Shown here: piece by piece, positions 33,561 to 53,512 of the stretch | Position numbering within the stretch: the first letter of the stretch is position 1 | Layout: every line of letters starts with the position of its first letter | DNA from: a virus | Reading direction: 5' to 3' (one strand) | IMG/VR virus record: IMGVR_UViG_3300025030_001854 | Span: 1-64,000 of that record | Length of the DNA stretch: 64,000 bases | The notes under the pieces: generated by a model | Databases searched by the model: none | Told to the model about the DNA's origin: nothing | Seen by the model: only the letters and a program-made list of their open reading frames with translations | Translations under genes and position numbers: made by a program

Positions 33561-34166
33561 TTAATCAATCCGAATAAGTCTTGAACCTCCACCTGGACTA
33601 ACCTCAACAGCCTTTTTAATGTCTTCTTCTGAAAGACCCCTTAAAGATTGGGCAATTTTCATAACTGTTCCATTACAAGGAAAATATCCCTTTTTGGTAT
33701 ATTTAAAAGCCCTCCTTAAAGAATCAACAACATTTCCCTCAAGTTTATTAACTCCAAGATGATTCCTTAAAGTAGAAATAATAGCTTCAGTAGTGGAATA
33801 AATTTGAGTTCCATTCCAAGCAAACTGACAAACAGTAAAATCAAAAGAATTAAATAAATCTTCTATCGAAGAATAATACTTAACCCTAATGCATTGAACC
33901 AACAAATCATCAAGAATAAAAGAGACAGCATTCTTATGTTCACTGATTTTTTTAAATCCCCTCTGTAAAAGTAATTGACAATAATTGTTAAACGCCTTCT
34001 CTGTTTCAAAAAAAACATCTACATCACTTAATTTCTCATTACCTTTAAACCAACCACGAATCGCCCCGCCAGCTATCCAACCAAATAACGATGAAGAGGG
34101 AATAGGAACAATATCGGGAATTTTTGGTCCTAACATCTGAAGTTCGTCAAGAGTAATAATAGTCAT
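33561..34166 (-). CDS. tRNA nucleotidyltransferase / poly(A) polymerase head-like protein
   Basis: AGGAIRG, DVDVFF, FDFTVCQ and R..KY..KG motifs. Confidence 0.65.
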   Translation of the reverse strand: MTIITLDELQMLGPKIPDIVPIPSSSLFGWIAGGAIRGWFKGNEKLSDVDVFFETEKAFNNYCQLLLQRGFKKISEHKNAVSFILDDLLVQCIRVKYYSSIEDLFNSFDFTVCQFAWNGTQIYSTTEAIISTLRNHLGVNKLEGNVVDSLRRAFKYTKKGYFPCNGTVMKIAQSLRGLSEEDIKKAVEVSPGGGSRLIRID

Positions 34167-34178
34167 AAATAATAAAAA

Positions 34179-34446
34179 AATTTAAGAAAAAATAGCCGAG
34201 ATTCTGTGTTCCTTGCGGTCATCTTACATTTATCTCACTTTACAGTGGGGATTTACTAATAATCCCTGCTCCAACCTCGCCAGACTTTGGCGTATAACTC
34301 ACATACGGCTCTGGCTATTTAGGATTGCTTTGGATTTGTGGTATTAACGAGAATAAATTCTCTCCCAATCATCGAGTTAAAAAGTCTCGAACTTGTCCTC
34401 TATAATAGGGTTAGCCTATTACAGCGTAAGATTTTTTTCTTAAATT
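34179..34446 (-). ncRNA. rnpB: Minimal RNase P RNA
   Basis: P1 AATTTAAGAAAAAA/TTTTTTCTTAAATT; P2 ATCTTAC/GTAAGAT; P3 TAATAGG/CCTATTA; GAGGACAAGTTCGAGAC and ACAGAATCTCGGCTA form P4; GGAGCAG and AGATAAATG conserved blocks. Confidence 0.8.
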
Positions 34447-34639
34447 AAAATAGTTCTCCATATTTTATCAATTTTCCATTTACTTCTTTAAGCATATAAC
34501 AATCAGCATATCCTAATTCATTTAACATTAAACGACTAGCAATATCTTCAGCTATATCTTTTTTAGAAGGACGGGACAACTGTTCTAAATATTCATCAGA
34601 TACTTCTACATCTATAAGCATTTTAATATTCATAAAAAT

Positions 34640-34852
34640 TAGAGTAGCTTTTGTTTTTTGCGGCGTTAGCCATGGTAGTGCTACTTATCCATCTACCGTA
34701 GTTTGGTCAATGTAGAGAAACCTTCGATGGCGTAGAATTTCCTCTGGTTTCTTTAGTTTGTTCTATTAGACACTTCTCAGCATCCGTCAATGACTCAAAG
34801 TGTTAATATATTCCGTTTTAACAACTACTCCGTGGCCTACGGATGACCAAAT
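34640..34852 (-). ncRNA. Orphan structured RNA candidate
   Basis: Intergenic and GC-enriched; GAGTAG/CTACTC closing helix, AGAAACC/GGTTTCT helix, TTTGGTCA/TGACCAAA possible pseudoknot. Confidence 0.45.
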
Positions 34853-35232: not shown

Positions 35233-35757
35233 TTAACGCAAGTTTGCCCCGCTGTCAAGCACCCCTTTTGTTCCGAAATCTGGATGTTGACAAATTAAAA
35301 CTTTAATATTTAACGATTGTCCAAAAACAGATTCGAGAATAGCCATAACAATATGCCAATCTCCACCACCCCTATTACATCCAATACCATAAGGGATAGC
35401 TAAAATTTTAACTTCTCCGCTATCTTTCTTTAAAATATTATTCCTAAGAGAAGTTAGTCCTTCAACCAAAGCGTTGTAATCAGTTTGTCTTTTCCCGCCC
35501 CCTAATTCAAATTGCCCATATAAATTAATAATATTAGACACCCCAGGAAATGAAAAATTATAAACTGCTGCATGGGAAAAGGTTCCAAGTTTAGATGGGT
35601 CGCCGTAAGAAGTTTTTTTATCAGCTTCGTAAGCTTCTGGAAACAGCTCTCGTATATCTTTAGCTATTCCCGCGCCCATAACATGAAAACAATTAGCTTG
35701 ATGAATATGGGCATCTGCTTCTTGCTGAAAGAAGTCTATTACTTTTAATTCAATCAT
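35233..35757 (-). CDS. Macro domain (Appr-1-p processing) protein
   Basis: HQANCFHVMGAGIA, NLYGQ, IPYGIGCNRGGGDW. Confidence 0.85.
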   Translation of the reverse strand: MIELKVIDFFQQEADAHIHQANCFHVMGAGIAKDIRELFPEAYEADKKTSYGDPSKLGTFSHAAVYNFSFPGVSNIINLYGQFELGGGKRQTDYNALVEGLTSLRNNILKKDSGEVKILAIPYGIGCNRGGGDWHIVMAILESVFGQSLNIKVLICQHPDFGTKGVLDSGANLR

Positions 35758-37714: not shown

Positions 37715-38677
37715 TTATGTCGGTGTTGAAATAAGAGAATCTGAATACCTTTTCCAAACATCTTCCAAAGAAGGAATTTTTACTTCGTCTTTATATAGAC
37801 CCCAAGACTTTTTCATGTCATCGGTATTCCAAGATAATTTTTTGGAAATCAGCAAAGGAAATAATTCAAGATACTTTTGATATAATGGATATAATTCCAT
37901 CTTTTGGATTTTAGGCCAAAGTTCAAAGAATAGTTTTGTCAATTGTGTTCTATTTACGGTATTTAAATAAACCAAAAACATACTATCTGGAGAATACTTC
38001 TGAAAAAAAGGCGATTGGCTAGCTTTAACAATTTTAAATAATTCATAACCAACAACCTTAGATAAACATAATGCTGCTGCCGCTGCATACGGAGAAGATA
38101 ACCAACTACTTGGACTTCTAAATTCTAATCCATGTAATTGAATCCTATAATCTAAACCCTGCCCATAATGGCGGCGACGAAAACGAGCATCTTTTGATTT
38201 TTCAACCAAGGTGCAAGGAATTCCCACAAAAAACGCCAAATTAAACATAAAAAAGTCTATATTTAGAGGAAAATTACCCTGCCACGCTTGATAATCATCT
38301 CCTTCTTTTTCAAAACCAAAATGAATATGTCCACCTAAAGTCTCTCGATTAATTCTTGACCCGGCTTTCCAAATATAATCTTGTAAAATCGGTCGAGTAT
38401 TAGCGAAAGAAAGAAGAATTTCTCTAATTCTATTTACTACTACTAGAGGATTTTCATCTGGTTCTGGACGTAATTCAAGAATCCTCCCACATCCATCTGT
38501 TCCCATCAACCCAACATTATGAGAATCATCTTCGCTAAAAAATCTGGCCAATGCTGTAGAATGAGTCGTTGTGTGGGGCAAACAAAGAGCAAACTCTGGG
38601 TCAGCACCTAACTTAAAATTTTTAAAATCTCTCTCACTCATAAAATTATGTATTAGATGGGATAATAAAATCATCAA
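37715..38677 (-). CDS. phiEco32-like COOH-NH2 ligase
   Basis: LGADPEF, GTDG, ELRPEP, GGHIHFG, RR.HYG, EFRS. Confidence 0.8.
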   Translation of the reverse strand: MMILLSHLIHNFMSERDFKNFKLGADPEFALCLPHTTTHSTALARFFSEDDSHNVGLMGTDGCGRILELRPEPDENPLVVVNRIREILLSFANTRPILQDYIWKAGSRINRETLGGHIHFGFEKEGDDYQAWQGNFPLNIDFFMFNLAFFVGIPCTLVEKSKDARFRRRHYGQGLDYRIQLHGLEFRSPSSWLSSPYAAAAALCLSKVVGYELFKIVKASQSPFFQKYSPDSMFLVYLNTVNRTQLTKLFFELWPKIQKMELYPLYQKYLELFPLLISKKLSWNTDDMKKSWGLYKDEVKIPSLEDVWKRYSDSLISTPT

Positions 38678-40606: not shown

Positions 40607-40691
40607 CGGCTGTTGAAGGGATTGCACCCTCGCGCCCAAAGGGACGGCTTCAGTTTTCGAGACTGACCTATTACTACTCTAGCAAACAGCC
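40607..40691 (-). tRNA. tRNA-Ser(CGA)
   Basis: TCAGT CTCGAAA ACTGA, long variable arm, no encoded CCA. Confidence 0.8.
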
Positions 40692-42176
40692 CTAACTGCT
40701 TTTCTTGGATTCGTGACAAGAACAGTCGCAACTCTTCTTAGAACACCAATTAAATTTCTTTTTTAGCCAAACTAAAAGTCCAGCACAAAAAATTGGAATT
40801 CCTATACAAAAAATTCCACCATCAATACAAGATATCATTATTTTTCCCCTTTAGAACATTTACCACATAAAAATTGTGAGCCATTCCACCATAATAACAA
40901 CAAAGGATAAATATCGTGACAACATTCGCATTCTTGCAAAAGGTCATAATTCCCTATATTGTCGTATCCATCCCACATATTATAGTTTATTAAATTAATT
41001 CCCTAAGATAACGTTTAATTTCAATACGAGCGGGTTTATTAGCTTTGGCATATTGCTTTTTAGAAGCTCTAATAGCAGTATGAAGCTTGTCTTCTGGAAG
41101 TTCTGAAGATTCTCGTAATGCTTTTCTAATGAGTTTTGCTGTTTTTGCGTTCATAAAAGTTTAACTATTTTTTATATATTTTTCTAATTCTTTATCGGGT
41201 AAATTTTTTCTCATTTCGACACATTGAGGATTTGAAGAAGAACATCTACCGCCAAATTTTAAGCATTCATAAAAATAAGAGCCTTTTAAATTCATTAATT
41301 CTTGTCTAGTAGATTTTGGGGCCAATTCTGGATATTTTTTAAACGATACAAATTTACCAAGCTCTAAATTTCCAACTTTTTTACATTCTACAAATTGAAT
41401 ACTATAACGTCTCATATTAAATTCCAGTAAAAGTGTCTTTTTTCTTTTTTTTAAACCACTCTTCTACTTCTAACCACAAAGCCACTACAATTAGTAGAAC
41501 TAATATAAAAAAATCTTTTATGGTTCTCATTGGAGCCCTAAGATGGTATCGCGCCATCGTCTCTTGAATACCAATCAAGAATAATGCTTTTATACTATTA
41601 GGGCATAAACAAAATATTTGAGCCCCGTCCCAGAATTGCACTGAGATTTCTTCCTTACGAGGGAAGCACATCTCTATTTATGTTTACGGGGCTTAGACCC
41701 ATTATAAAATGGGCGGGTTCTGGCCAAATTTAAGCGGTTACTAATTGAGAATTCTTATATTCTTCTCCGCACTTATCACAAACAACAACTGGTTGAAATC
41801 CAATTTCTTCTCGGCCCGTGCCACTCAATAGGGCCGAAACCTTACGAATTGTCAATACTTGTTTAAAGTATCCATGTCCACACTTACACATAACTTGTGT
41901 CGTTTGAGACATAGGAATACTGCGAGGACTTAGGTCTGATGCGTTCATATTTTTAATTTAAAAAGAAAATTCCGACTAAACAAAATAAAACACCAATACC
42001 TAAATAAGCAAATAGCTTACATAGCATTTTAAAGTTTTTGGCATTTGCTTGTTCTTCAACGTATAAATTATCCCAAGAGGTTTCTTCCTGTTTAAGGACA
42101 GGAGATTTAAGGTCAATTTCTTGATTTTCCATATAGGTTATATTAAATTAGAGTTGCTGGTTTGTCAAACAAAAAT

Positions 42177-42253
42177 TGGTGTTCGCGGTTGGATTTGCAC
42201 CAACCTAATCTATCTACGATTACTTTTTTAGGAAAAAAGGTCGATACGCGAAC
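42177..42253 (-). tRNA. Atypical D-armless tRNA-Arg(CCT)
   Basis: GTTCGCG/CGCGAAC-ACCA, loop TT CCT AA, T arm GTTGG TGCAAAT CCAAC. Confidence 0.6.
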
Positions 42254-42865
42254 AAAAAATTATAAATTAACATCCATAATTGCTATCTTCTGGAGGAATA
42301 ATTAATGGTTCCAGTTTAAGGGTTTTCTTAAGAAGGTTCTTCTTAATAAGGACGCTTAAAGCTTTTGCTCTTAGATTAAATTCTCTTTGAGATTCTTTTC
42401 TTTTCTGACCTGCAAATTTTTTTGTTTTTCTTTCTTTTTTATTAAATTGACCTTGATGACCAATTCTCCATTTATCTCCAAGAGATTCTAATGGTTCACG
42501 ACAAATAGGACATAACCCATAACCCTTACGGCTATATTTATGCTTTTCGCAAACGTAATTTAAGTTTCTATTTCCAAACATACAATTTCATTTAATTAAT
42601 TTATATTTACTCTTAAGAAAATCAATACGAGTGGAATATTTAGAACTCTCAATAATTGGATTTCCTTCTATCTTCAGAAAGATATAACGGACTTCTGTTC
42701 TATCTTTATTTATAGCAACAATTTTAATGAAGGTATCTCCCCAATCTTTGTCTACTAATTCGTCACCAACAGAAATATTGGGACAACAGGATTTAGAAAT
42801 AATACTCTTTCCGTTAACAACAAAATTCCAAAATCTAGTAAAAATATTATTCATAATATATAAAT

Positions 42866-42943
42866 TGGTAGGATAGGAGGGATTCGAACCCTCATTAGTC
42901 CATTATGCACACATTGTTTAGAAGACAAGGCCATTACTATCCC
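42866..42943 (-). tRNA. Atypical D-armless tRNA-Arg(TCT)
   Basis: GGGATAG/CTATCCT-ACCA, TTGT CTTCTAA ACAA, GGTTCGAATCC T arm. Confidence 0.7.
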
Positions 42944-43543
42944 ATTAAATTATTTAATTACTTTAAACTTTTATCGTCCTTTTCTGGGAGGATAAAAAAA
43001 TATAGAGCTTTTACAAACCTCACAGGTTTCTCTTGCGAAATCTCCATCTCTCTGGCATGACTCTATTTTCAGTTCCCGTTGAAAAGCTTCAAAACGAGAG
43101 AAACAATTAGGACAAGTACTAATCCAAATTTCTTCTGAAGGAGGATTGCCTCTAAAAACACATTTCATATTAAATTTTTTTCTCTATTTTCACCACCAAA
43201 AATTCTATATCTTTAGCAAAATGAAGAGTCTCCTGTTTATTTCTTCTCGCATCACGAATAGCTAATTTTTTATTTTTCCAGTTACTTGATTGAATATGCC
43301 AAGTAATAGGAAAATCTTCTCTGTTTCTCCAAAAAATTGTATAATTGATGGTAGATTTCATTTTAAATAATTCAGTTTTTTTTAATTTGATTTCGAGTTT
43401 TTAACACCCAGGCTGTCTCGACGATAGTATAACCATCTTGGTCACATACGCTATCCCATTCTCCAATAGATATAAGATAATCTTTCGCCTGTTGATAAGT
43501 TAGACCTTTTTCTTTTTCGAAGTCACTAATTTTCATTCAGAAA

Positions 43544-43619
43544 TGGAGTCCGCTATAGGAATCGCACCTATCAACCCTCGTTTTGCAGACGCGGTGTTTC
43601 ACTAGCCACACCAGCGGAC
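43544..43619 (-). tRNA. tRNA-Cys(GCA)
   Basis: Loop CTGCAAA, U73-CCA. Confidence 0.8.
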
Positions 43620-44080
43620 ATTTTTATTCTTCATTAAAAGTCTTATCTTGGCATTCCTGGCAAAGGCCCGAAATCCTCGCCTCCTTACGGCTTAGAGTAT
43701 CTCGAAAAGGCCCATAAGGCTTTCGGCAGATTGGACAGACTTCTTTCCCGATGCTTTCCTGCCTATTTACACCAAAAATTTGGGTCAAAAGTTTATCAAT
43801 TGCTGGATTTTTCTCTGTCGGTTTCATAATATTCTTTAAATTAATTAGTTATTTTATCCGCCAAAGTTCTAAGAGCACCAGAAAGAGCAATTAAATCTTG
43901 CTTACGAACAGTATTAAGACAGAACGTAGATGCTACTGTTGAATCAGTTCGTTGCGTGACATCAAAAACCAAACTATGATAACAAAAATTTTTCATCTTG
44001 TTCTTCTTAAGAGTAAGAAAGACTACTGAATTATAGCTATTAATTACTACAGATACAGATTGTCGTTTCATAATCTTACT

Positions 44081-44386
44081 TTACTCCTGTTTTGGCTGCT
44101 CGTCAAGCCATTTTGCAATCACATCACAATGACACGACACTTCTTTATCGGCACGTTTACAATAACAGCCTAATTTTTCATCTTTTAAAGTTAAAACTAA
44201 ATCATAAAACCTTTTATCTTTAAGACAAAAATTAAACCATTTAGCAAATTTATTAATAACTTCTTCTCTTGTCCCATCTCTACCGATTTCAAAAGGATTA
44301 CCAAATATAGAACCCCTTCCACAGTACTCATAAGGAGTTTCTGAATAAGCTCTTATATTAATTACTTTTGTCATATATATTTGCAA
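44081..44386 (-). CDS. DUF4326 family protein
   Basis: YCGRGSIFGNPF, LGCYC, CHCDVI. Confidence 0.8.
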   Translation of the reverse strand: MQIYMTKVINIRAYSETPYEYCGRGSIFGNPFEIGRDGTREEVINKFAKWFNFCLKDKRFYDLVLTLKDEKLGCYCKRADKEVSCHCDVIAKWLDEQPKQE

Positions 44387-44464
44387 ACGGGGAGATTTGC
44401 ACTCCCACGCTTTTTAAAGCCTAAGATTCTCGGTCTTAGATGTCTGCTCTTTCATCACGTTTGC
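44382..44464 (-). tRNA. tRNA-Leu(GAG)
   Basis: TAAGA CCGAGAA TCTTA with long variable arm. Confidence 0.75.
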
Positions 44465-44923
44465 TCTATTTCTTACTCCATAATTAGAGGTTTGAGCATG
44501 ACAATTACAGCATAAAAGTTGAATATTGAATAATCTATTATCCTTATTATCTCCATTGATATGATGTAATTCCAAAGGAATATATAATGTATTCCATTTA
44601 ACCCGACCACATTTTTCGCATTGATGTTTTTTTAAACCCTCTTGAATCAATCTTTTTTTTAAACAATGACTACTAATTTTTATGCAATCTTTTACAAGAA
44701 AATATTCAATGGGTTTTCTGGTTGGAGCCCTTTTACCTCTCCAGATAGCTTGACCCAAAAAATGAGGTGCTTTTATTAAAAACTCTTCGGCCCTTTCTTT
44801 TATTCTTAAATAATTATGACTGTCTGGATACAATCCCAATTTAATACATACACTTCTCCAAGATTCTGAATTTTGAATCACAATATTTAATGTTTGAAAA
44901 TCAATTTGTTTTATCTTACCCAT
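44414..44923 (-). mobile_element. HNH endonuclease overlapping tRNA-Leu(GAG)
   Basis: CEKC, LELHHING..DNR..N...LCCNCHAQT. Confidence 0.85.
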
Positions 44924-44980
44924 ACTGTCTAATAGTTACACGAAACAGTATGAATTGGGAATTTTCCCTATCTAAAAATT

Positions 44981-45071
44981 TGCGGGGTCTGAGATTTGAA
45001 CCTCAGTCCAGAGTGACAAGCTCTCTTGTATACCCTACTCGCCTTTCGGTTCTTCAGGGCCGCTCCCCCGC
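44981..45071 (-). tRNA. Atypical tRNA-Thr(TGT)-like RNA with enlarged D region
   Basis: GCGGGG/CCCCGC-A, T arm CTGAG GTTCAAAT CTCAG, loop CT TGT CA. Confidence 0.45.
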
Positions 45072-45072
45072 G

Positions 45073-45474
45073 TCAGTAACCTCGGTAACAAACCGTTAAG
45101 TGTAACGGCCATTTTAAATCAGGTTTTAATCCTAATTCAGTTCTTATATGTTGAATAAAAGGACATTCCACTAATAACCAAAAATACTCTCCTAAAAAGA
45201 AATATTCATGGTCAGTCTTAATATCAGAGAAATATTTAAATTCAATTACTTTTCCTTCATATTTACCCCATAAAGGATGTTGATTAATTCCCCTTTCGTG
45301 TTTTCCAGGAAGAATCGTAACGTGGCTTCCGTGGTAAGAGGTAGAAGTTTTCTTGCCGATAAATCTTTCTACCCAAAATCTATAGTAATTAGCAATAGAA
45401 TGAGGACATTCTAAAATTATCCAATCATTCTTATATCTAATAACGCCTTTGGCGAAATAAAATTTTTCTTTCAT
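45073..45474 (-). CDS. 2H phosphoesterase-like protein
   Basis: Two HxT motifs, SHVTI and PLHLTV. Confidence 0.6.
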   Translation of the reverse strand: MKEKFYFAKGVIRYKNDWIILECPHSIANYYRFWVERFIGKKTSTSYHGSHVTILPGKHERGINQHPLWGKYEGKVIEFKYFSDIKTDHEYFFLGEYFWLLVECPFIQHIRTELGLKPDLKWPLHLTVCYRGY

Positions 45475-45723
45475 AATTCAATCCTTTCTGTTTTTTTCAC
45501 CAGATAAGTGAACGGTTCTACACTAAAACGTATTTGTTTTGTCGTCAAGGACTTTCCAAAACTAACGGCCCTATCACTTCACGACAATCATTAGATAATC
45601 TTAATTCTTTTATTCTTTTTAAACACTCTTTTTTAAAAGAAAATCTTTCAAACCGAACATCCCAATGTCCTTCCATTTGATTATACTCAAAATATTCTTC
45701 GTAAATAATAAAATACATAAATT

Positions 45724-45798
45724 TGGTAGTCCCGAACGGTCTTGCGCCGATACTTGCGAATTTTTGAAATTCGTGCCTCTGCTTTGGGCTACGGGACC
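45724..45798 (-). tRNA. tRNA-Leu(CAA), short variable arm
   Basis: CGAAT TTCAAAA ATTCG. Confidence 0.75.
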
Positions 45799-46451
45799 AT
45801 TTAATCTAAATTTTCTGGTTTAACTGGCCAACCAATACTTAAAAAGGATTCTAATTGCTCTCCCGCATTATATTTCCACTTAGGAGGTTCATCACAAATA
45901 GCGGAACAAAAATCCATTAATTGATACGCTGGAAGAGAAACTATTTGATGGATATCACTACCTAAAACTTTAGCCCCAATCTTATAAGCTATTTTTTCGG
46001 CGTCTTCTAAAGATTGAGCGGGCAAATGGAAAGCATATTTCCGATTTTCAATATCATATTCAAGTAAATACAATTTCACCATATTAATTTTTTAATTCAA
46101 ATTCAAGTTTAGTTAAAGTTTTCAAATTTAAATCTTTTTTCTTACATTCTTCACATCCATTTTTAACAAAGATTTCTGTTTTGTCTTTTGATGGACAACG
46201 GCATTGTTCTAACACTTTACCGCAACTACATTTTTTTATATAATGCATAGAGATTATTTTCCAATTGGCATAAACTCAATCACAAAATCTGTATAATCAT
46301 CAGGCAATAGCAAAATATTTCCATTGGATGTTACAATTGATTTACCAGAACGAGGATTTGCCCATGTTCCACCACCCTCACGAACAAAACAGTAAGTGTT
46401 ATCTACTTTAACTACAGAACCAATAGGTAAAGCTAAAATATTTTTCATAAA

Positions 46452-46528
46452 TGGTGAGATTAGAGGGCATTGCACCCTCGTTTACTGCTTGAGAAACAGT
46501 AGTCCTATTCTTCTTAGACGATAATCTC
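46452..46528 (-). tRNA. tRNA-Glu(CTC)
   Basis: ACTGT TTCTCAA GCAGT. Confidence 0.8.
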
Positions 46529-46908
46529 ATTTTAAGAACTACATACTAAACTACTAATTTTAGCTATAACAGCGGCATCAATATAGTCTGTATACTTTGA
46601 TGTTATAGTTGTATAAAAACAATCGCTATTATCTATTTTTAGTATTCCGGTGCTGTCAATTGGCGGTAATGGGCTTCCGACAATAGTATTTTGGGTTAAA
46701 GTATTTAAACGATTTAACTCTACTTTTTCAGCTTCTCCACTACTTACCCATAGACTAAAAAGCGAAAAACACTCAGGACAAACATTCAAAACTTCTTCTT
46801 TGGGTTTTTTAAGTTGAATAGCTTCGTTTTCGTTTTCTATTCTTGATTGGCAAAAAAAGCATTCCATAGTTAAAGATTAACCTGGAGTTGTTTGATTGTC
46901 AAGAAAAT

Positions 46909-46979
46909 TGGTGGCAGGCTGGGGATTCGCACCCCACCGAATTCCTTATGAGAGAACTCTGGCCGCTAGACCGCTTGCC
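46909..46979 (-). tRNA. tRNA-Met or Ile2(CAT), short D arm
   Basis: GTTCT CTCATAA GGAAT. Confidence 0.7.
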
Positions 46980-47098
46980 AAAAATAAGTGTAATATATTG
47001 TGAATTGAGATTTGAAATAGCTATAATTTTTAGCCTCCTTATGTGCCCCTTGGAAGGGAGCTTCTGGTTTCCAGTCTCAATTCACCATAAGGACGGCT

Positions 47099-47626
47099 AT
47101 GATTAATAATATGAAAAAATGTTCTAAATGTCAGCAATTAAAAAATAAATCTTTTTTTTGTAAAAATAAACGAGCAAAAGATGGACTTTTTTCCCACTGT
47201 AGAGACTGCCGAATAATTTATTATAAATCAATAACTACTATTAAAAAAGAAAAAATTAAAATTCGTCATAATATTCGAATGAACGAACGATTTGATAATC
47301 CAATAGAAGTAAGAAAAATTCGTTTAAAAACCTTATTAATTATATCAAGATATAGAGCTAAAAAAAGAAATTTACCATTCGATTTAGATAAAGACTGGCT
47401 AGATAAAAATACCCCCGATACTTGTCCAGCTTTAGGTATTCCTCTTATTTTTAATCCTAGATATGGAAACCATTCTTTTAATTGCCCATCAATAGATAGA
47501 ATAGATAACTCAAAAGGATATACTAAAGATAATTGTGTTGTTGTATCAAAAAAAGCTAATACTATTAAAAATATGTCTACTATATCCGAATTAAAAATGG
47601 TCGCTGATTTTTATTCCAAATTTTGA
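47099..47626 (+). mobile_element. HNH-like endonuclease
   Basis: KKCSKC, CRDC, CPALG, PSIDRIDNSKGYTKDNCVVVS..AN. Confidence 0.75.
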
Positions 47627-48308
47627 AGATTATTTATATCTTTTTCTTAAAAAGTTTAATAGACAACGTTCATCGCAAAAATTATATTGCTTGGTTTCCC
47701 CAGTGTCAATACCTGTTTCTAATGTAGCATCAATAGCTGGATTGGGTTTTTCTCCCTGTTCTTTTGTTTTCTTGGGTTTTGACGAATCAATAGACATTTT
47801 ACATTCGTCGCATTGAATTACCTTTTTCGCTATAACAGAAGGAATATCTAATAACCAAATTCCCTGCTTTTTAAATGTTTCGTCTATTAATGGCATATAT
47901 TGTCTATTACACAAAAAAACGTGTAATTTATATTAACCTTAAAATTTTATGCCAGAAATTACTTTTACAATCACCCAAAATCGTTTTGATAAGATTCAAA
48001 ATGCAATGACATCTTACGCCGAATATAATCCTTTAGACCCAGCGGTAGACGAAAATGACTTTGCCAAAAAGGCTTTTTTGGCTATGCTGCAAGTTTATTT
48101 AAATAGGCATCGCCAAACCCGTATTGAAACGGTTAAAACTCAACTTTCTGAATGCTCAGATGCTACCTGGACTCAAATCACTGGTATTTTAGGATAATAC
48201 CATACTATAACTAACGGGGGGAACATTTAATTTAATGTCCTTTTGCTGGGAAGACGCACATCCAGATAATAAAACAATTACAACTAATAGTATTAATAAT
48301 TTCATATT

Positions 48309-48845
48309 TTAAAATTTAATAAAATAACAAGACTCTATCTCTTCTTTGGTGAGAATTACTATCTTACAAGTTTGGGGCTCGTAAAAGCCTATTTTTACTT
48401 TTTCTTGTTCTCTATATAAAAAAATATTTATAGCATGTCCCTGCAATTCTTTAGTCTCATAAAGAAACTCCCCAAAAGATAAAGCCGTATTTTTTAATTT
48501 ATTAGGAGTATTATGGTGAAGATATTGGGCAAAAAAAGCAGAAAATCTTGCGAAATCATCACAATCATTTTCTTCAGCAGTCCAATTAGAACTTGCTAAT
48601 TGTTGTTTAAAACTAAAAAATGAGTCAGAAAAAGCTCCAGCCACCCAATTTTTACTTGGAACAGCGTAATTTCTGTCAGAATACATTGATAGAGAAGGAA
48701 TAATACCATTAGTGGCAAGATGAATTCTAATTTCTTGTCCAGTCATCTTAAACGTCGAAACTGGATGATTATCTTGTTTTGAACAACCAAATAGTAATAA
48801 AACACTTAAAATTATAACCGCTAATATACTCTTACCGATATTCAT
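48309..48845 (-). CDS. Lipoprotein with papain/transglutaminase-like domain
   Basis: Lipobox LLFG-C; NDCDDFA, GHAIN, YEPQ suggest a Cys-His-Glu triad. Confidence 0.6.
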   Translation of the reverse strand: MNIGKSILAVIILSVLLLFGCSKQDNHPVSTFKMTGQEIRIHLATNGIIPSLSMYSDRNYAVPSKNWVAGAFSDSFFSFKQQLASSNWTAEENDCDDFARFSAFFAQYLHHNTPNKLKNTALSFGEFLYETKELQGHAINIFLYREQEKVKIGFYEPQTCKIVILTKEEIESCYFIKF

Positions 48846-49105
48846 GACTATATTTACACAAAAAAGCCAGCTAAAAAGCTGGCTCGTGTTTAATATTCAA
48901 ACTTAATTTTCAGGTTTTATCCCCCAGTTCGTTTTGAGAAGTTCATTTTCAATTACTTGGAAATCCAATGTCTCTCCACCAACTAGCATTGGATGAATGT
49001 AAATGTTTGGATGACCATTTTCATCTATATGAGAAACCCTAATGGAATGGTCTATTACATTATTTTTGTAATTTATTTTTAAATAATCTTCGAGGTTCAT
49101 AAAAA

Positions 49106-50110
49106 TTATTTTAATACAATAAGTAAAGTTCCTGGCACAAGATTTCTGTTCACAGAAGTACTTTGTATAAAGATATTATACTTATCATGACTTGCTGGCG
49201 AGACTTTAACCTCGTAGTCTGGTAAACCAAGAAGTTGCCGAGCGTTAGCTCCAGAATAGACTTTACCAGTTGTCTTTTCCTGAACTAGAATTTGTTTATA
49301 ATTTTGAACGCTTTCAGGTTTAGTAAGCTGAAAATAAGCAGAACCCTTTCGATAGGGTCGAGAAGTCCAACTTTCTACAAACGGCTGAATAACCGCTTTC
49401 CTCTGAACAGGGAAAACCTCAAAATCATTTATAGGTAATTCATCGAGAGTCACTTTTACAGCTTTCGTATTTAAAGTATTAGTATTTAATTGGAAAAGAC
49501 TCTTTGTGGAACGAATACCTTGGGAACGACCCAACATATAATTATCAGTTGCAGTCCTAATAACTTCTCCTACTTTAGTAACTCCATCAGAAGTAGTAGA
49601 CCAAATTTGAGTGTTCTCCAATGGGAATCCATAAGAAGTAGCATATCTTCGTCCCGAAGGGTCAGGAACTAAACACGCGAAAGTCCAATTATCCTTAGAC
49701 GTTTCAATCATTAATTTAAGCTTTTCGGGAGAATTTTTGCTACTATTTTCTTGACCATCAGTTAAAACATAAACTAAAAATGCATGGTCGGCATAGATTT
49801 CAGGAGTAAGACTTAAATCATCTGAAGCTTTAATTGTGGCATCAATAAGCGCCGTATTACCTGTTGCCAAATAATGCTTGGCGATACTTGGTAATCTCAT
49901 AACATCCATGTCATAAAGAAGGCAAGTGATGTCCTGATTAAACAAATAAACAGAAACTCTCGTTTCCTGATTCATCTCTTTGGAACGAGTCGCAAGGTGA
50001 GAAATTTGTTCATCGAATACCTTAACTACTTCACGAGAAAGTCCTCTCATAGAACCACTCTTATCAATGACAAATACAATATGATTAATATAATTTTGAA
50101 TTAAACTCAT
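49106..50110 (-). CDS. vWA domain protein
   Basis: MIDAS DKSGSM, TALIDA, LTDGQEN. Confidence 0.85.
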   Translation of the reverse strand: MSLIQNYINHIVFVIDKSGSMRGLSREVVKVFDEQISHLATRSKEMNQETRVSVYLFNQDITCLLYDMDVMRLPSIAKHYLATGNTALIDATIKASDDLSLTPEIYADHAFLVYVLTDGQENSSKNSPEKLKLMIETSKDNWTFACLVPDPSGRRYATSYGFPLENTQIWSTTSDGVTKVGEVIRTATDNYMLGRSQGIRSTKSLFQLNTNTLNTKAVKVTLDELPINDFEVFPVQRKAVIQPFVESWTSRPYRKGSAYFQLTKPESVQNYKQILVQEKTTGKVYSGANARQLLGLPDYEVKVSPASHDKYNIFIQSTSVNRNLVPGTLLIVLK

Positions 50111-50163
50111 GACTTATGATATGTAAAATTTTCCAAAAAATCAAGTAAAATTTTCCAAAAAAT

Positions 50164-50238
50164 TGGTGGGTTGACGGGGAATCGCACCCCGTTCCGAGAC
50201 TTTAAGAGAGTCCGCTTCACTATCAAAGTTTTCAACCC
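50164..50238 (-). tRNA. tRNA-Lys(CTT)
   Basis: GGACT CTCTTAA AGTCT. Confidence 0.8.
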
Positions 50239-50310
50239 ATAATTACTAAAAAGGTGGCCGGGCTAGCTCGTCATTATTACAGACGCCGACCATAAATTAA
50301 TTTTAATAAA

Positions 50311-50496
50311 TTGCGGGTGAGATTTTACTCACAACAGTTTTCAGGGCTGGTTAGGCTATATACTGCACCCAAACAGTTACGTCACACAATTCATAAAACC
50401 ATTCCTCATAACCAATTAAGGAACACGTTTGTATGCACCATGGCTCTCTTTCAGACCATGCCATAACTATCTGTCCATCTAATTCTGGCACCGCAA
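50311..50496 (-). ncRNA. About 185-nt tRNA-like structured RNA, possibly manA-class
   Basis: TTGCGG/CCGCAA ends, terminal GTGAG TAAAAT CTCAC arm, CATGGTC/GCCATG and TTCCT/AGGAA hairpins. Confidence 0.55.
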
Positions 50497-50801
50497 AATT
50501 ATTTAATCCAATAATTAAAAATCTTTATCTACGACAGCAATCTTTAGTTTATTGCCAGTAGCCATTTTCACTAAATCATTAACGGTCTTTAATAAATTAT
50601 TTAAATCTTTATCGTCTTTAATTAGCTGGGTCACCCAACCCTCTCCGGTTGGTAACTCGCACCATACAAAACAAGCCCCTTTTTGTTCTCCAGCAAACTT
50701 TAAGATTCCACTTTTCTCTATTAATTCAATCATTTCTGATTGGACATCTGGAAGTTTATCTGTGTTAACTAATTTTTTGTCGATGGTTGTGATTTTCATA
50801 A

Positions 50802-50987
50802 TTAAATATGAATACTATTTAAATAAGACCAAAGCCCACTTACCTTAATTAGCCACAGAACTAGCAAAACAACAGTCGCTATATTAAGGATTTTCTTAAT
50901 CTTTCCGTCCATTGGAACATACAAATTAATTGCATACAGGGCCATTCCAATCAAAACTATAACCAACATAACTATAAATAATGACAT
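50802..50987 (-). CDS. Small two-TM membrane protein (Thivi_2564-like)
   Basis: IN.YVPMDGKIKKILNI..VV..VLWL motif between two TM helices. Confidence 0.6.
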   Translation of the reverse strand: MSLFIVMLVIVLIGMALYAINLYVPMDGKIKKILNIATVVLLVLWLIKVSGLWSYLNSIHI

Positions 50988-50991
50988 AAAT

Positions 50992-51065
50992 TGGTGGGAC
51001 TCCACGGTATCTCGCCGTGTTCTCAAGGTTAAAAGCCTTTTGCATCAATTTAATGCTTGAATCCC
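50992..51065 (-). tRNA. tRNA-Lys(TTT) copy 1
   Basis: AAGG CTTTTAA CCTT. Confidence 0.75.
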
Positions 51066-51112
51066 ATTTTGTTTTAATCTCTCTTGTGTAGATTAAAAGT
51101 GTAAACACATAT

Positions 51113-51580
51113 ATGAAAGAACAAATTCTTAAACTCAGAGCTGAAGGTAAATCTTACGACCAAATTGTTTCGTTACTTGGATGTTCTTCTGCTACTGTTT
51201 GGTATCATTGTAACCCAACCGCAAAAAAAGAACGAGCCCGCCTCAATAGATTAAAAGATAAACTTTGGCATAAAAAAATTAAAATTATTTTTGGTGGTAA
51301 ATGTCAATCTTGCGGTTATCATCGCTGTCTTTCCGCTTTAGATTTCCATCACTATAATAACGATAAAACATATTCGGTCATGAATATTATTCGTATTTCA
51401 AAAGGTAAAGCAATACAAGAAGCAATGAAATGTATTCTTCTTTGTTCTAATTGTCATCGAGAAGTTCATAATAAAATGTTAGATATTAGTCATTTAGTCC
51501 CAAACATTCCTACTCAAGGACTTGGGAAAAGCGGACGACCATCAAAACTTATAGTAATGGCTAAAACCTTCAACCCATAA
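51113..51580 (+). mobile_element. HTH-HNH endonuclease
   Basis: N-terminal HTH; CQSCG, LDFHH, LCSNCHREVH. Confidence 0.8.
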
Positions 51581-51815
51581 CTAATTTTTTTTCTTAGGAC
51601 CGCCATGCCTATAACAAGCTAATCCTGAGCAATATCCTGGCCACCATTTTCCATTAATAAATTCAACATAACGCATTTGGTCCTTTTCTTGAGGTCCATA
51701 AGCTTCTTCGTCGCAAAATCCATCGGGAAGACCGCCACTCCACATTGGGACAGAACAACGTCCTTTTCCTTCTGAATCTAATTCTTGATGATGTTTTGAA
51801 AGAGATGCCATAATT

Positions 51816-51889
51816 TGGTGGGCCTCCACGGTATCTCGCCGTGTTCAATTGGTTAAAAGCCAATTGCATCAATTTAATGCTTGAAGCCC
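51816..51889 (-). tRNA. tRNA-Lys(TTT) copy 2
   Basis: TTGG CTTTTAA CCAA; D and T arms match copy 1. Confidence 0.75.
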
Positions 51890-52155
51890 ATATATAACAG
51901 TATTTTCTTAAATTTTAAATTAAGAATTGTTCTAAATTGGAGCCGCAGTAGGATAACGCTTCCTATCATTAAATTTACAAAATTCAATACCCTCTTAGGG
52001 ACAGCGGCATTAAAAGGGTCATGAAACATGACCCAGTATTCTCTACGTCCAAGTCTTATCACGCATTTGTCCACGTTTCGAACCGTATCGTAACAGAGGA
52101 GAACATCGACTTGGTTATACTATCTCAAAAATTTGTGGACTTGTCAAACAAAAAA

Positions 52156-52232
52156 TGGTGCGCCGTGAGAATTCTGCCATCTCGTTATTTTTGCTTGGAA
52201 GGCAAATGCCATAGCTTCTAGGCGAACGACGC
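52156..52232 (-). tRNA. tRNA-Gly(TCC)
   Basis: TTTGC CTTCCAA GCAAA. Confidence 0.8.
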
Positions 52233-52251
52233 ATTAATTAATTTAAATTAG

Positions 52252-52323
52252 CTCCCTCTGATGGTAACGCTCCACCCTTTTCTGATTCAGAGTCAGTTGT
52301 AATAACTAATATACTAAGAGGGA
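52252..52323 (-). tRNA. tRNA-Gln(CTG)
   Basis: CTGA CTCTGAA TCAG, U1-A72, G73. Confidence 0.75.
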
Positions 52324-52971
52324 ATGAATCTGTTTTTTTATAATTGGGCTATGCCATCAAAAGTAATCCAAGGAACATAAGAATTTCCGGTTTCTGTATT
52401 ATTAACAGGCAAGTTCGCATATGTAGATTTACTTCCAAATTTTTGGAATCCTCCGCGATAAGCTGCCCCGCTATTTCCACTATTTGTTAATCTATATAAT
52501 CCGACTTCTACCACGAGAAGGTCGTAATTATCAAATTCAAAATAAGCACAATTACCAGAAAATGTTCTATTTTGTAATATTCCATAAGAAGTATTTTCAT
52601 ATTCTGAACCTACTGCTCCAGAAAACACAGTTTGTTTTAAACTTCCAGAAGGAGAATGAATAGAAATAGTAAGCGAAGTTTTATAATCACCAGCCGTCGA
52701 ATCTTCTCGGCCTTGAATTTGACCTCGAAATAATCCATTAATTGCTGCTGTTCCCATATTTAGCTGGGCAACATACTGTCTATTTAAAAAATTGAAAACT
52801 CCGGTATTAGGGAAATTTTTGTAAATTTCTTTAACAGAAGGAACTCCAGTTTCCGTCTTTGAACTACTTAAAACTTTTCTATCTCCAGATGTGGTAGCTG
52901 TCCAATAAGTAGAAAATGATGGCGAGGCAACAATGCCTGTTGATTGAGAAAAATAAAATGTATTACTCATA

Positions 52972-53172
52972 TTAAGTATTACACTTATTCTTTCTCCATT
53001 TTCTCCATTCTACCAATAATAAAACAATAATTAAAGGAATTAAAATAAATACCCCACCAACTTCGGGAATAATTGGATAATGGGGATTATGAATATTGGA
53101 ATGACCATGAGGGTTTCCGTAATGATTTCCATTATTATAAATTGTTCCATAGGTGAGGCTGTTTGTTTCCAT
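52972..53172 (-). CDS. Small protein with PEP-CTERM-like sorting signal
   Basis: PIIPEVGG followed by TM helix and basic WRKWRK. Confidence 0.5.
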   Translation of the reverse strand: METNSLTYGTIYNNGNHYGNPHGHSNIHNPHYPIIPEVGGVFILIPLIIVLLLVEWRKWRKNKCNT

Positions 53173-53198
53173 AACATCAGGTGTTTTGAGATATAAAA

Positions 53199-53272
53199 TG
53201 GTAGGCCGTACTTGTTACGCTCAAGTGAAAAAATCTCATCAGGATTCTATTTTACTATTAAATTAACGGCCC
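53199..53272 (-). tRNA. tRNA-Ile(GAT)
   Basis: GAATC CTGATGA GATTT. Confidence 0.75.
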
Positions 53273-53331
53273 ATTAAAAGTCAGCTATGAGAACGCGATT
53301 CTCTTATAGTGGTAGTTGACGAGTCCACAAA

Positions 53332-53423
53332 TGGTAGCTCCATGCCGAATCTCACGGCCCAGCACCCCAGTCCGGGGATTATATTCGTTATAAGCGAACC
53401 CATGCAATTTACATCTTGGAGCC
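53332..53423 (-). tRNA. tRNA-Ile(TAT) with long variable arm
   Basis: GTTCG CTTATAA CGAAT, variable hairpin CCCC/GGGG. Confidence 0.7.
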
Positions 53424-53436
53424 ATTACTAATTAAA

Positions 53437-53512
53437 TGGTCCCATTCCATCGTACTGCCCGATGACTTTCTGTGCTTCAAACAGACGTGCAGACTATCTA
53501 CACCAGAATGGG
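53437..53512 (-). tRNA. tRNA-Phe(GAA)
   Basis: TCTGT TTGAAGC ACAGA. Confidence 0.75.

What the first reader, a model, noticed from the sequence alone, without database searches (positions are those of the whole stretch)
34179..34446. Phage-encoded minimal RNase P RNA with a remodelled specificity domain
Seen: all catalytic-domain landmarks appear in order with compensatory pairing. These are P1 (14 bp), P2 ATCTTAC/GTAAGAT, P3, P4 (AAGTTCGAGA with TCTCGGCT), P5 CTTT/GGAG, AGATAAATG, short P15-like GGGATT/AATCCC and CC GCAA GG hairpins, in only 268 nt. The S-domain segment (about 95 nt; GAGAAT/ATTCTC, GCCAGA/TCTGGC) lacks the usual conserved blocks. Established: bacterial RNase P RNAs are typically 330-400 nt and the S-domain reads the tRNA elbow. 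Inference: a viral ribozyme adapted to this phage's non-canonical tRNA elbows.
Basis: partly seen in the sequence, partly recalled or inferred. Interest (0 to 1): 0.85.

Follow-up and report, generated by a model that had tools for sequence, protein, structure and literature searches.

The report
Phage-encoded reduced RNase P RNA gene
A large groundwater phage carries its own slimmed-down copy of RNase P RNA, the ribozyme that trims the front end of new tRNAs; it belongs to a big phage-only family that I found described in no paper.

Summary
The 268-nt stretch (minus strand, 34446 to 34179) is a real, divergent RNase P RNA gene. No Rfam RNase P model hits it, even at E<=10. A pattern taken from its 3' end pulled 85 IMG/VR loci, and 72 hold the same RNA, mostly beside tRNA arrays. 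A profile of 28 of them, built without the candidate, hits only this site in the whole 136.8-kb record. The score is 84 bits, E 1.5e-25, or 56.6 bits, E 7.4e-17, once the pattern-selected 3' part is removed. The family structure covaries strongly: 88.7% of cells paired against 34-44% for slid controls, and 57 of 66 pairs show compensatory changes. Seven of 23 relatives' loci match Rfam RNase P models significantly but below threshold. All 83 proposed pairs of the candidate are canonical. Its idea of adaptation to odd tRNA elbows is not supported: the same domain serves phages with normal tRNAs (420 of 457). Catalysis is inferred, not shown. This scan found the class before on other DNA.

The parts
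34179..34446 (-). Whole RNase P RNA gene, 268 nt (RNA position p = window 34447 - p)
   Evidence: Family HMM envelope 34446-34178; all helices canonical; only hit in the 136.8-kb record
34433..34446 (-). P1 5' strand (pairs with 34179-34192)
   Evidence: 14/14 pairs; all 12 family P1 pairs show compensatory changes, 75% of cells paired
34179..34192 (-). P1 3' strand
34426..34432 (-). P2 5' strand (pairs with 34221-34227)
   Evidence: 7/7 pairs; family 91.3% paired, 6 of 7 pairs compensatory
34400..34424 (-). P3 hairpin, 10 bp with a 5-nt loop
   Evidence: 10/10 pairs; family outer 6 pairs 98.6% paired
34385..34400 (-). CR-I: J3/4 plus P4 5' strand (GAGGACAAGUUCGAGA). It has a bulged U and is 2 nt longer in J3/4 than the main family form
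   Evidence: the same variant is in 4 other distinct family RNAs; Rfam consensus GAGGAAAGUCC is printed
34193..34207 (-). CR-V: ACAGAA plus P4 3' strand (UCUCGGCU) and A
   Evidence: P4 8/8 pairs; family P4 100% paired with 4 covarying pairs; matches Rfam consensus ACAGAACCCGGCUUA
34381..34384 (-). P5 5' strand CUUU (pairs with AAAG at 34328-34331)
   Evidence: 4/4; family 98.2% paired, 4 of 4 pairs compensatory
34374..34378 (-). P6 pseudoknot 5' strand AACUC (pairs with GAGUU in the P17 loop, 34296-34300)
   Evidence: 5/5; family 95.5% paired, 3 of 4 pairs compensatory. The name P6 is by recalled type-A architecture
34332..34373 (-). Reduced specificity domain (RNA 74-115): a short helix, GGGAG, a P12-like hairpin (34349-34362) and CGUUAAUACC
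   Evidence: family helix 81.4% paired, 4 of 5 pairs compensatory; Rfam models leave this part of relatives unaligned
34270..34324 (-). P15-L15-P16-P17 module. P15 is UCC/GGA, P16 GCCAGA/UCUGGC, P17 CGUAU/AUACG. The L15 3' side GAGGUU (34273-34278) carries the GGU motif
   Evidence: P15/P16/P17 assignment follows the Rfam alignment of L228; GGT is invariant in 28 of 28 members; family pairing 96.4/90.0/79.6%
34248..34266 (-). Extra hairpin between P15 and P18 (GGGAUU/AAUCCC, loop AUUAGUA).
   Evidence: 6/6; 5 of 5 family pairs compensatory; the loop U-AUUAG-YA recurs in the nearest relatives
34236..34247 (-). P18 hairpin with GUAA tetraloop
   Evidence: 4/4; family 88.1% paired
34227..34235 (-). 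CR-IV / J18-2: AGAUAAAUG
   Evidence: Rfam consensus AGAugAAUG
34211..34218 (-). P19-like mini hairpin CC-GCAA-GG, inserted between P2 3' and CR-V
   Evidence: similar inserted hairpins in L213, L228, L194, L171 and L348. The name P19 is recalled from type B
33561..34166 (-). Downstream same-strand ORF, 201 aa, nucleotidyltransferase-like; its ATG lies 12 nt after the RNA's 3' end
   Evidence: phrog_4400 E 1.3e-17 and phrog_1614 'nucleotidyltransferase' E 3.9e-10; no Pfam family
34445..34633 (-). Upstream same-strand ORF, 62 aa, acidic, no family; its stop codon overlaps the RNA's first 2 nt

Best explanation
This is the gene for a reduced, type-A-like RNase P RNA carried by a large phage of about 33% GC (IMG/VR record of 136.8 kb, CheckV 71% complete). 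The RNA keeps the whole catalytic domain:
- P1-P5, with a P4 helix that has its bulged U and is flanked by CR-I, CR-IV and CR-V
- the P15-L15(GGU)-P16-P17 arm
- the P6 pseudoknot
- P18

The specificity domain is cut down to one short helix plus one hairpin, about 42 nt.

Shown: homology to a large phage family, conserved and covarying structure, and a statistical link from that family to the Rfam RNase P models.

Inferred: the RNA is transcribed with its neighbouring genes and released. It then binds the host's RnpA protein, since none is encoded in the record. The resulting enzyme cleaves the 5' leaders of the phage's own tRNA precursors, with L15 GGU pairing to the encoded 3' CCA. This would make the maturation of the phage's many tRNAs less dependent on host RNase P.
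For: 1. Family membership. An HMM of 28 relatives, built without the candidate, hits 34440-34180 (minus) at 84 bits, E 1.5e-25; the next hit has E 0.52. There is a single hit in the whole record. With the pattern-selected 3' part removed the hit is still 56.6 bits, E 7.4e-17.

2. Structure.
- All 83 proposed pairs of the candidate are canonical.
- Family alignment A2: 88.7% of cells paired, against 60.3% shuffled and 34-44% slid; 57 of 66 pairs have compensatory changes; covariation score 0.642 against 0.09-0.16 for slid controls; P4 is 100% paired.
- The candidate's own structure on A3: 80.7% paired, 49 of 65 pairs compensatory.

3. Link to RNase P. All of these are below Rfam's gathering scores.
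- L228: RF00010, 59.1 bits, E 1.2e-17, aligned over model positions 1-367 with CR-I, P15/L15/P16/P17, CR-IV and CR-V in register.
- L191: RF00011, 58.8 bits.
- L221: RF00373, 40.7 bits.
- L362: shares the candidate's CR-I variant; RF00010, 36.4 bits, E 7.6e-8.
- G006 and G005 copies: 64.8 and 40 bits.

4. Context.
- 45 of 56 distinct family loci hold tRNA genes; 31 have one within 500 nt.
- This phage has at least 12 tRNA genes on the same strand, 6.2-26 kb upstream.
- 9 of those 12 encode CCA, which fits the invariant GGU in L15.

5. The family is viral.
- 73 of 85 IMG/VR pattern loci hold the RNA (one cut by a locus end). Only 6 of 88 pattern loci in 185,579 species' genomes do.
- One such genome also has a canonical rnpB at 255 bits.
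Against: - No Rfam RNase P model hits the candidate itself, at gathering or at E<=10 on 651 bases. The genome search with RF00010 on the record found 0.
- Only 7 of 23 relatives' loci scanned gave any RNase P hit at E<=1, all below gathering.
- The family HMM does not hit a canonical bacterial rnpB (L325) at E<=10. The bridge to RNase P therefore rests on covariance-model hits and shared motifs, not on plain sequence similarity.
- The candidate's J3/4 in CR-I is 2 nt longer than in 72 relatives. That set was selected with the shorter motif, and 4 other distinct RNAs share the longer form.
- It does not lie inside the tRNA array.
- No RnpA gene in the record (the record is incomplete).
- No promoter-like site is placed to serve it.
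- Neither transcription nor catalysis has been shown.
Confidence: 0.78

Rival explanations
1. It is an RNase P-derived RNA that no longer acts mainly on pre-tRNA 5' ends. It might be a decoy that titrates host RnpA or blocks host RNase P. Or it might be a ribozyme retargeted to other phage RNAs, such as the tmRNA precursor or the tRNA-like and Y-like RNAs noted elsewhere in this window.
For: - The specificity domain that reads the tRNA elbow is almost gone.
- The gene sits 6 kb from the tRNA array, next to RNA-metabolism genes rather than between tRNAs.
- The record also encodes a tmRNA.
- The one viral RNase P-like RNA I found in print, from camelpox virus, was reported inactive on pre-tRNA and discussed as a possible decoy (passage read in PMC3001073).
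Against: - Every catalytic-core element is kept under covariation, including the bulged U of P4 and the CCA-binding GGU. A mere protein decoy would not need them.
- Most family members sit inside tRNA arrays.
Confidence: 0.12
2. One reading: the specificity domain was remodelled as an adaptation to this phage's non-canonical tRNA elbows.
For: - 9 of 12 tRNAs in the window have TGCRA rather than TTCRA T-loops.
- The locus of one near relative, L227, has 3 of 5 TGCRA and 0 TTCRA.
Against: - The same reduced domain with the same conserved blocks serves phages with canonical tRNAs: 420 of 457 TTCRA across 56 loci.
- The closest relatives L195 (68% identical) and L348 (69%) have 26/26 and 8/8 TTCRA.
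- No domain position distinguishes the candidate and L227 from the others.
Confidence: 0.07
3. It is a decaying or functionless captured copy, or host DNA misassembled into the viral contig.
For: - No Rfam hit.
- A 2-nt insertion in the most conserved core strand.
- No expression data.
Against: - 83 of 83 pairs are intact and all conserved blocks are intact.
- The insertion is shared by 4 other distinct RNAs that are only 60-69% identical overall, so it is maintained.
- The gene is packed between two same-strand phage ORFs, with 2 nt of overlap on one side and a 12-nt gap on the other.
- The same DNA stands in contigs of several groundwater runs (some may be the source of this DNA).
Confidence: 0.03

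Closest known systems
Bacterial class A RNase P RNA (rnpB, E. coli M1 RNA type; Rfam RF00010)
   Same: - Order and pairing of P1-P5.
- P4 with a bulged U, between a GAGGA..AGU.C strand and an ACAGAA..GGCU.A strand.
- AGAU.AAUG before the P2 3' strand.
- P15 with an internal loop carrying GGU, then P16, P17, the P6 pseudoknot and P18 with a GNRA loop.

The consensus is as printed; the candidate is.
   Different: - 268 nt against a 367-position model.
- The specificity domain is about 42 nt, with no alignable P7-P9, P13 or P14.
- P4 is one A-U pair shorter (GGCUA rather than GGCUUA).
- J3/4 is 2 nt longer than in the phage family.
- An extra hairpin between P15 and P18, and a small hairpin between P2 and CR-V.
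- No hit to the model.
- Encoded by a phage.
The unnamed family of phage-encoded reduced RNase P RNAs in IMG/VR contigs
   Same: All helices and conserved blocks; HMM 84 bits; phage origin; tRNA-rich genome.
   Different: - At most 69% identical to any member found.
- It belongs to the rarer sub-type with the longer J3/4 (5 distinct RNAs including this one).
- It lies outside the tRNA array, directly upstream of a nucleotidyltransferase-like gene.
- Its phage's tRNAs mostly have G at T-loop position 55.
Naturally reduced cellular RNase P RNAs: Mycoplasma fermentans and Thermoproteaceae (type T) forms, and diverged forms in CPR bacteria
   Same: Natural loss of specificity-domain helices with the catalytic core retained. 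PMC8172020 (passages read) reports CPR RNase P RNAs that lack P12, P13, P14, P16, P17 or P18 and are found only below Rfam thresholds. It names M. fermentans and Thermoproteaceae as the known cases without P12.
   Different: - Those are the cell's only, essential copy. This one is an accessory viral copy.
- This RNA keeps P15-P17, P6 and P18, which many CPR forms lack.
- The sizes of the M. fermentans and type T RNAs are recalled, not checked here.
Camelpox/orthopoxvirus RNase P-like RNA
   Same: A virus-encoded RNA with secondary-structure similarity to bacterial and archaeal RNase P RNA (passage in PMC3001073).
   Different: - It comes from a virus of animals.
- It was reported there to have no pre-tRNA processing activity in vitro.
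- That passage gives no family-wide covariation evidence.
- It is not associated with viral tRNA arrays.

Membership tests
Bacterial RNase P RNA class A (Rfam RF00010) | Scores at or above the curated gathering score (100 bits) of the covariance model | tested here: not met
   No hit at gathering, none at E<=10 on 34000-34650, and 0 matches with the genome search. Relatives score 36-65 bits.
Bacterial RNase P RNA class A (Rfam RF00010) | P4 helix with a bulged U, formed by the CR-I strand and the CR-V strand | tested here: met
   8/8 pairs with bulged U56; 100% paired in 28 relatives, with 4 covarying pairs.
Bacterial RNase P RNA class A (Rfam RF00010) | Conserved core blocks CR-I (GAGGAAAGUCC-like), CR-IV (AGAUGAAUG-like) and CR-V (ACAGAA..GGCUUA-like), in that order | tested here: met
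   GAGGACAAGUUC at RNA 47-58, AGAUAAAUG at 212-220, ACAGAAUCUCGGCUA at 240-254, compared with the consensus printed. CR-I carries 2 extra nt and CR-V lacks one U.
Bacterial RNase P RNA class A (Rfam RF00010) | P15 internal loop with GGU (the binding site for tRNA 3' CCA), followed by P16, P17 and the P6 pseudoknot | tested here: met
   One search gives the helices; GGT is invariant in 28 of 28 members; register as in the Rfam alignment of L228; P6 95.5% paired. That GGU binds CCA is established knowledge, recalled.
Bacterial RNase P RNA class A (Rfam RF00010) | Full specificity domain (P7-P14 with conserved blocks CR-II and CR-III) | tested here: not met
   Only about 42 nt lie between P6 5' and P5 3'. 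Rfam models leave this part of relatives as unaligned insertions. A resemblance of CGUUAAUACCAC to CR-III is my recollection only.
Bacterial RNase P RNA class A (Rfam RF00010) | Catalyses removal of the 5' leader of pre-tRNA | not testable with these tools
Phage reduced RNase P RNA family (alignment A2, unnamed) | Significant match to the family profile over its full length | tested here: met
   84 bits, E 1.5e-25, HMM positions 7-238 of 240; 56.6 bits without the pattern-selected part.
Phage reduced RNase P RNA family (alignment A2, unnamed) | Consensus helices P1-P6, the S-helix, P15-P18 | tested here: met
   All are present and fully paired in the candidate; the projection on A3 is 80.7% paired.
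Phage reduced RNase P RNA family (alignment A2, unnamed) | Lies within or beside a phage tRNA array | tested here: inconclusive
   The nearest called tRNA gene is 6.2 kb upstream on the same strand. In the family, 31 of 56 loci have a tRNA within 500 nt and 11 of 56 have none in the stored locus.
Bacterial RNase P RNA class B (Rfam RF00011) | Match to the model; the type-B helices (P5.1, P10.1, P15.1, P19) in place of P6, P16 and P17 | tested here: not met
   No hit at E<=10. P6, P16 and P17 are present. Only a 2-bp P19-like hairpin and one extra hairpin resemble type-B features (helix names recalled).
Archaeal RNase P RNA, including the S-domain-less type T (Rfam clan CL00002) | Match to any model of the clan | tested here: not met
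   No clan member hit the candidate at E<=10. Some relatives hit RF00373 at 21-41 bits.

The most novel reading that the evidence does not exclude
The phage ribozyme is an 'elbow-blind' RNase P. Having shed the domain that measures the tRNA T-loop/D-loop corner, it would recognise substrates through the acceptor stem, the 3' CCA (L15 GGU) and the leader alone. It could then mature tRNAs that host RNase P handles poorly. In this phage those would be the G55 T-loop tRNAs and the D-arm-less tRNA-like genes noted by other readers. Together with the nucleotidyltransferase-like gene 12 nt downstream, it would form a self-contained viral tRNA end-maturation module (5' trimming plus 3' end addition or repair). 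That module would free phage tRNA design from host processing constraints.
Probability: 0.2. Interest if true: 0.85.

Novelty: new variant of a known kind. Interest (0 to 1): 0.74.

Why it matters
RNase P RNA is one of the few universal ribozymes, and textbooks treat it as a cellular housekeeping gene.

**Auxiliary viral function.** A large, covarying, phage-specific family of half-sized versions would add 5' tRNA processing to the list of translation-related functions that phages carry.

**Minimal architectures.** The family offers dozens of natural minimal forms (about 180-270 nt). They show which parts of the ribozyme are dispensable when the specificity domain is nearly gone.

**Detection.** Current Rfam thresholds miss the family entirely. 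This member gets no hit at all, so such genes are absent from phage annotations.

**This copy as a test case.** It is a useful one because:
- its phage's tRNAs have unusual T-loops;
- it carries a rarer variant of the most conserved core strand;
- it is directly followed by a nucleotidyltransferase-like gene.

I found no paper describing phage RNase P RNAs in 8 full-text searches. Subscription-journal papers and supplements were not searchable, so this is not proof of absence.

Tried and rejected
**Direct Rfam detection.** No RNase P hit on the window at gathering. None at E<=10 on 34000-34650; the only rows there were weak chance matches to Ysr197, CrcZ and snoR64a. RF00010 over the whole record: 0.

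**Exact-word scans of IMG/VR.** My motif filter kept one of these, L046, which has no Rfam hit. A 17-mer of CR-I gave 15 stretches, all reading as high-GC coding sequence rather than this RNA.

**Synteny route.** 17 loci encode relatives of the downstream nucleotidyltransferase at 26-37% identity. The two upstream gaps I read, in L002 and L001, show no such RNA. A single-sequence nhmmer search of the candidate against the 136 loci then held found nothing.

**BLAST against GenBank phages.** The candidate and family member L153 both gave no match.

**Expression.**
- No RNA holder was listed.
- Read laying showed one identical contig in X1, which may be this DNA's source.
- It also showed short pieces of other family members in X12.
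- There was nothing usable on variation or RNA ends.

**Protein subunit.** No PF00825 (RnpA) match in the record, which is 71% complete. The upstream 62-aa ORF is acidic and matches no family.

**L227's record.** It holds no relative of the nucleotidyltransferase.

**Family HMM against a canonical rnpB (L325).** No hit at E<=10.

**Promoter scan.** 6 sigma-70-like sites against 8.1 expected by chance, and none placed to serve the RNA.

**Pfam for the nucleotidyltransferase-like ORF.** Nothing at E<=0.001 or of any meaning at E<=1. I therefore do not call it a CCA-adding enzyme.

**Prokaryote genomes.** The same 3' pattern gave 88 loci, about the number I estimated by hand for chance. Only 6 carry the family and 2 are partial matches in Mycoplasmataceae-labelled contigs.

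Full report
**What is there**

The finding's coordinates hold a 268-nt intergenic stretch. The stretch lies between two minus-strand ORFs. The stop codon of a 62-aa acidic ORF (34445-34633) overlaps its first 2 nt. The ATG of a 201-aa nucleotidyltransferase-like ORF (33561-34166) follows 12 nt after its end. The window is the first 64 kb of an IMG/VR virus record of 136,838 bp, 33% GC, CheckV 71% complete. The strand folds better than all 200 shuffles (z = -3.64).

Rfam gives no RNase P hit:
- none at gathering thresholds over the window;
- none at E<=10 on 651 bases around the site;
- none with RF00010 over the whole record.

Taken alone this would refute the reading.

**Finding relatives**

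Several routes led nowhere:
- single-sequence searches;
- exact 14- and 17-mers;
- synteny with the nucleotidyltransferase.

A gapped pattern built from the candidate's AGAUAAAUG and ACAGAA..GGCUA blocks gave 85 IMG/VR loci. I estimated roughly 10 by chance; this is my own arithmetic, not a tool result.
- 72 of the 85 also have AGGAAG[U/C]UC 116-325 nt upstream, giving 56 distinct RNAs.
- One more locus (L152) is cut by the locus end.
- L171, L190/L198 and L191 hold variant, possibly split or permuted, forms.
- 8 are chance or coding matches. I read 10 of the 13 motif-less loci. L196, L214 and L217 repeat L178's match string.

**Membership of the candidate**

A MAFFT alignment of 28 members without the candidate (A2) was turned into an HMM.
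- It hits 34440-34180 (minus) at 84.0 bits, E 1.5e-25, covering positions 7-238 of 240. The next hit in the window has E 0.52.
- It is the only hit in the whole record.
- The relatives were selected with a pattern from the candidate's 3' end. I therefore repeated the test with that part of the alignment removed. The result was 56.6 bits, E 7.4e-17.

The closest members are 68-69% identical: L195 and L348.

**Structure**

On A2, a structure with 12 helices, including two pseudoknots, gives these figures:

| Measure | Observed | Shuffled | 3' partners slid |
|---|---|---|---|
| Cells forming standard pairs | 88.7% | 60.3% | 34-44% |
| Covariation score | 0.642 | 0.172 | 0.09-0.16 |

57 of 66 pairs carry changes on both sides.

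Per helix, cells paired:

| Helix | Paired | Note |
|---|---|---|
| P2 | 91.3% | |
| P3 | 98.6% | |
| P4 | 100% | 4 covarying pairs and an invariant bulged U |
| P5 | 98.2% | |
| P6 | 95.5% | |
| P15 | 96.4% | |
| P16 | 90.0% | |
| P17 | 79.6% | |

In the candidate, every one of the 83 proposed pairs is canonical. Positions are RNA positions:

| Helix | 5' strand | 3' strand | Note |
|---|---|---|---|
| P1 | 1-14 | 255-268 | |
| P2 | 15-21 | 220-226 | |
| P3 | 23-32 | 38-47 | |
| P4 | 54-62 | 246-253 | U56 bulged |
| P5 | 63-66 | 116-119 | |
| P6 | 69-73 | 147-151 | |
| Short helix | 80-82 | 106-108 | |
| P12-like hairpin | 85-90 | 93-98 | |
| P15 | 123-125 | 175-177 | |
| P16 | 132-137 | 163-168 | |
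| P17 | 140-144 | 152-156 | |
| Extra hairpin | 181-186 | 194-199 | |
| P18 | 200-203 | 208-211 | GUAA loop |
| Mini hairpin | 229-230 | 235-236 | 2 bp, GCAA loop |

Projected on an alignment of the candidate with 15 relatives, this structure is 80.7% paired against 36-49% when slid. 49 of 65 pairs are compensatory. The structure was derived from the candidate, which favours the unslid register.

**Link to RNase P**

Relatives hit Rfam RNase P models with significant E-values, all below the gathering scores:

| Locus | Model | Bits | E-value |
|---|---|---|---|
| L228 | RF00010 | 59.1 | 1.2e-17 |
| L191 | RF00011 | 58.8 | 2.2e-13 |
| L221 | RF00373 | 40.7 | 1.6e-10 |
| L194 | RF00373 | 28.6 | 2e-4 |
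| L212 | RF00373 | 26.2 | 1.2e-3 |
| L175 | RF00373 | 21.2 | 0.04 |
| L362 | RF00010 | 36.4 | 7.6e-8 |

In all, 6 of 16 loci and 1 of 7 loci gave a hit; the other 16 of 23 gave none. Two copies in genome bins score 64.8 and 40 bits.

The L228 alignment runs over the whole class A model. It puts these elements in register with the family's blocks:
- GAGGAAAGUCC;
- the GCAA-P15-AAAUAGG-P16-P17-CGGGUA-P15' module;
- AGAUGAAUG;
- ACAGAACCCGGCUUA.

That is the basis for my helix names. The specificity domain of relatives is left unaligned by the models.

Against the link: the family HMM does not detect a canonical Bacteroidetes rnpB, L325, at E<=10.

- P5 is CUUU/AAAG, not CUUU/GGAG. GGA is the 3' strand of P15.
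- GCCAGA/UCUGGC is P16, within the catalytic domain.
- GGGAUU/AAUCCC is an additional hairpin whose stem covaries and whose loop recurs in the nearest relatives.
- The specificity domain shrinks to about 42 nt (RNA 74-115). It does carry family-conserved blocks: GGGAG, a hairpin, and CGUUAAUACCAC.

**Special features of this copy**

- J3/4 is 2 nt longer (GAGGA-CA-AGUUC) than in the 72 relatives, which were selected with the shorter motif. A targeted scan found 7 further loci, 4 distinct RNAs, with the same longer form. They are 60-69% identical overall, so the variant is maintained. L348 also shares the small hairpin before CR-V.
- The gene is not inside the tRNA array. It lies 6.2 kb downstream of the last called tRNA gene on the same strand.
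- No RnpA gene is present in the record.

**The elbow hypothesis**

The window's tRNAs are unusual: 9 of 12 have TGCRA T-loops, 1 has TTCRA, and 9 of 12 encode CCA. But tRNAs beside family RNAs are overwhelmingly canonical: 420 of 457 are TTCRA and 15 are TGCRA-only, across 56 loci. This includes the closest relatives. No position of the reduced domain sets the candidate apart. The reduction therefore predates, and is independent of, the odd elbows. A ribozyme that no longer reads the elbow could still be what lets such tRNAs exist. That is my bold reading, and it is untested.

**Distribution**

In one genome per 185,579 prokaryote species, the same pattern gave 88 loci, about the number I estimated for chance.
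- Only 6 carry the family.
- One lies on a 3-kb contig with 13 tRNAs.
- One lies in a bin that also has a canonical rnpB at 255 bits.

The family therefore looks viral.

The DNA of this window occurs in groundwater metagenome runs, and no RNA holder is listed.

**Literature**

Eight full-text searches found no description of phage-encoded RNase P RNA. Passages I read:
- PMC8172020, on diverged CPR RNase P RNAs found only below Rfam thresholds.
- PMC11143913, a review in which 'phage-encoded' refers to tRNAs.
- PMC3001073, on a camelpox RNase P-like RNA without activity.

This scan has reported the same class on other DNA several times. I treat those notes as leads only.

**Verdict**

This is a genuine, structurally intact, divergent member of a phage-specific family of reduced type-A-like RNase P RNAs. 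Function in 5' maturation of phage pre-tRNAs with host RnpA is the most likely mechanism, but it is inferred.

Noticed in passing
window 40607-60577 (minus strand): 9 of the 12 ARAGORN-called tRNA genes have a TGCRA T-loop (G where the near-universal U55 stands), only 1 has TTCRA, and 3 of 12 lack an encoded CCA. The L227 locus, which holds a related RNase P RNA, shows 3 of 5 TGCRA and 0 TTCRA.
   Followed up: partly
G000:C1 70560-70942 (minus), outside the window: ARAGORN calls a tmRNA gene with a 24-residue tag peptide in the same phage record.
   Followed up: no
L191 (IMG/VR), about 560-1060 on its minus strand: The CR-IV/CR-V end of an RNase P-like RNA is followed directly by a P2/P3-like start, as if the gene were circularly permuted. 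Rfam RF00011 gives 58.8 bits. L171 and L190/L198 hold only the 3' half next to unrelated sequence.
   Followed up: partly
L348/L364, L331/L352, L349, L362/L363: A sub-type of the phage family has the same 2-nt longer J3/4 as the window's RNA. In L349 the RNA appears to start right at the end of a tRNA-like sequence.
   Followed up: partly
window 34640-34852: A 213-nt ORF-free block lies just upstream of the 62-aa ORF (another reader flagged it as a structured RNA). The scan shows one terminator-like hairpin at 34829-34843 (minus). No Rfam family matched at the scanned edge (34000-34650).
   Followed up: no
window 7527-8438, 35233-35757, 37715-38677: RNA-metabolism genes lie around the ribozyme: an RNA ligase (PF09414), a phosphatase-like ORF (phrog_335, E 4e-41) and a phiEco32-like COOH-NH2 ligase (PF14395). 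Together with the nucleotidyltransferase-like ORF they look like an RNA repair and maturation island.
   Followed up: no
L240/L328 (contig labelled Roizmanbacteria MAG), L246 (Bacteroidetes UBA6161 MAG): Family RNAs occur in a few metagenome-assembled 'bacterial' bins. One is a 3-kb contig with 13 tRNA genes. One is in a bin that also has a canonical rnpB (255 bits). These are probably phage contigs binned with cells, or prophages.
   Followed up: partly
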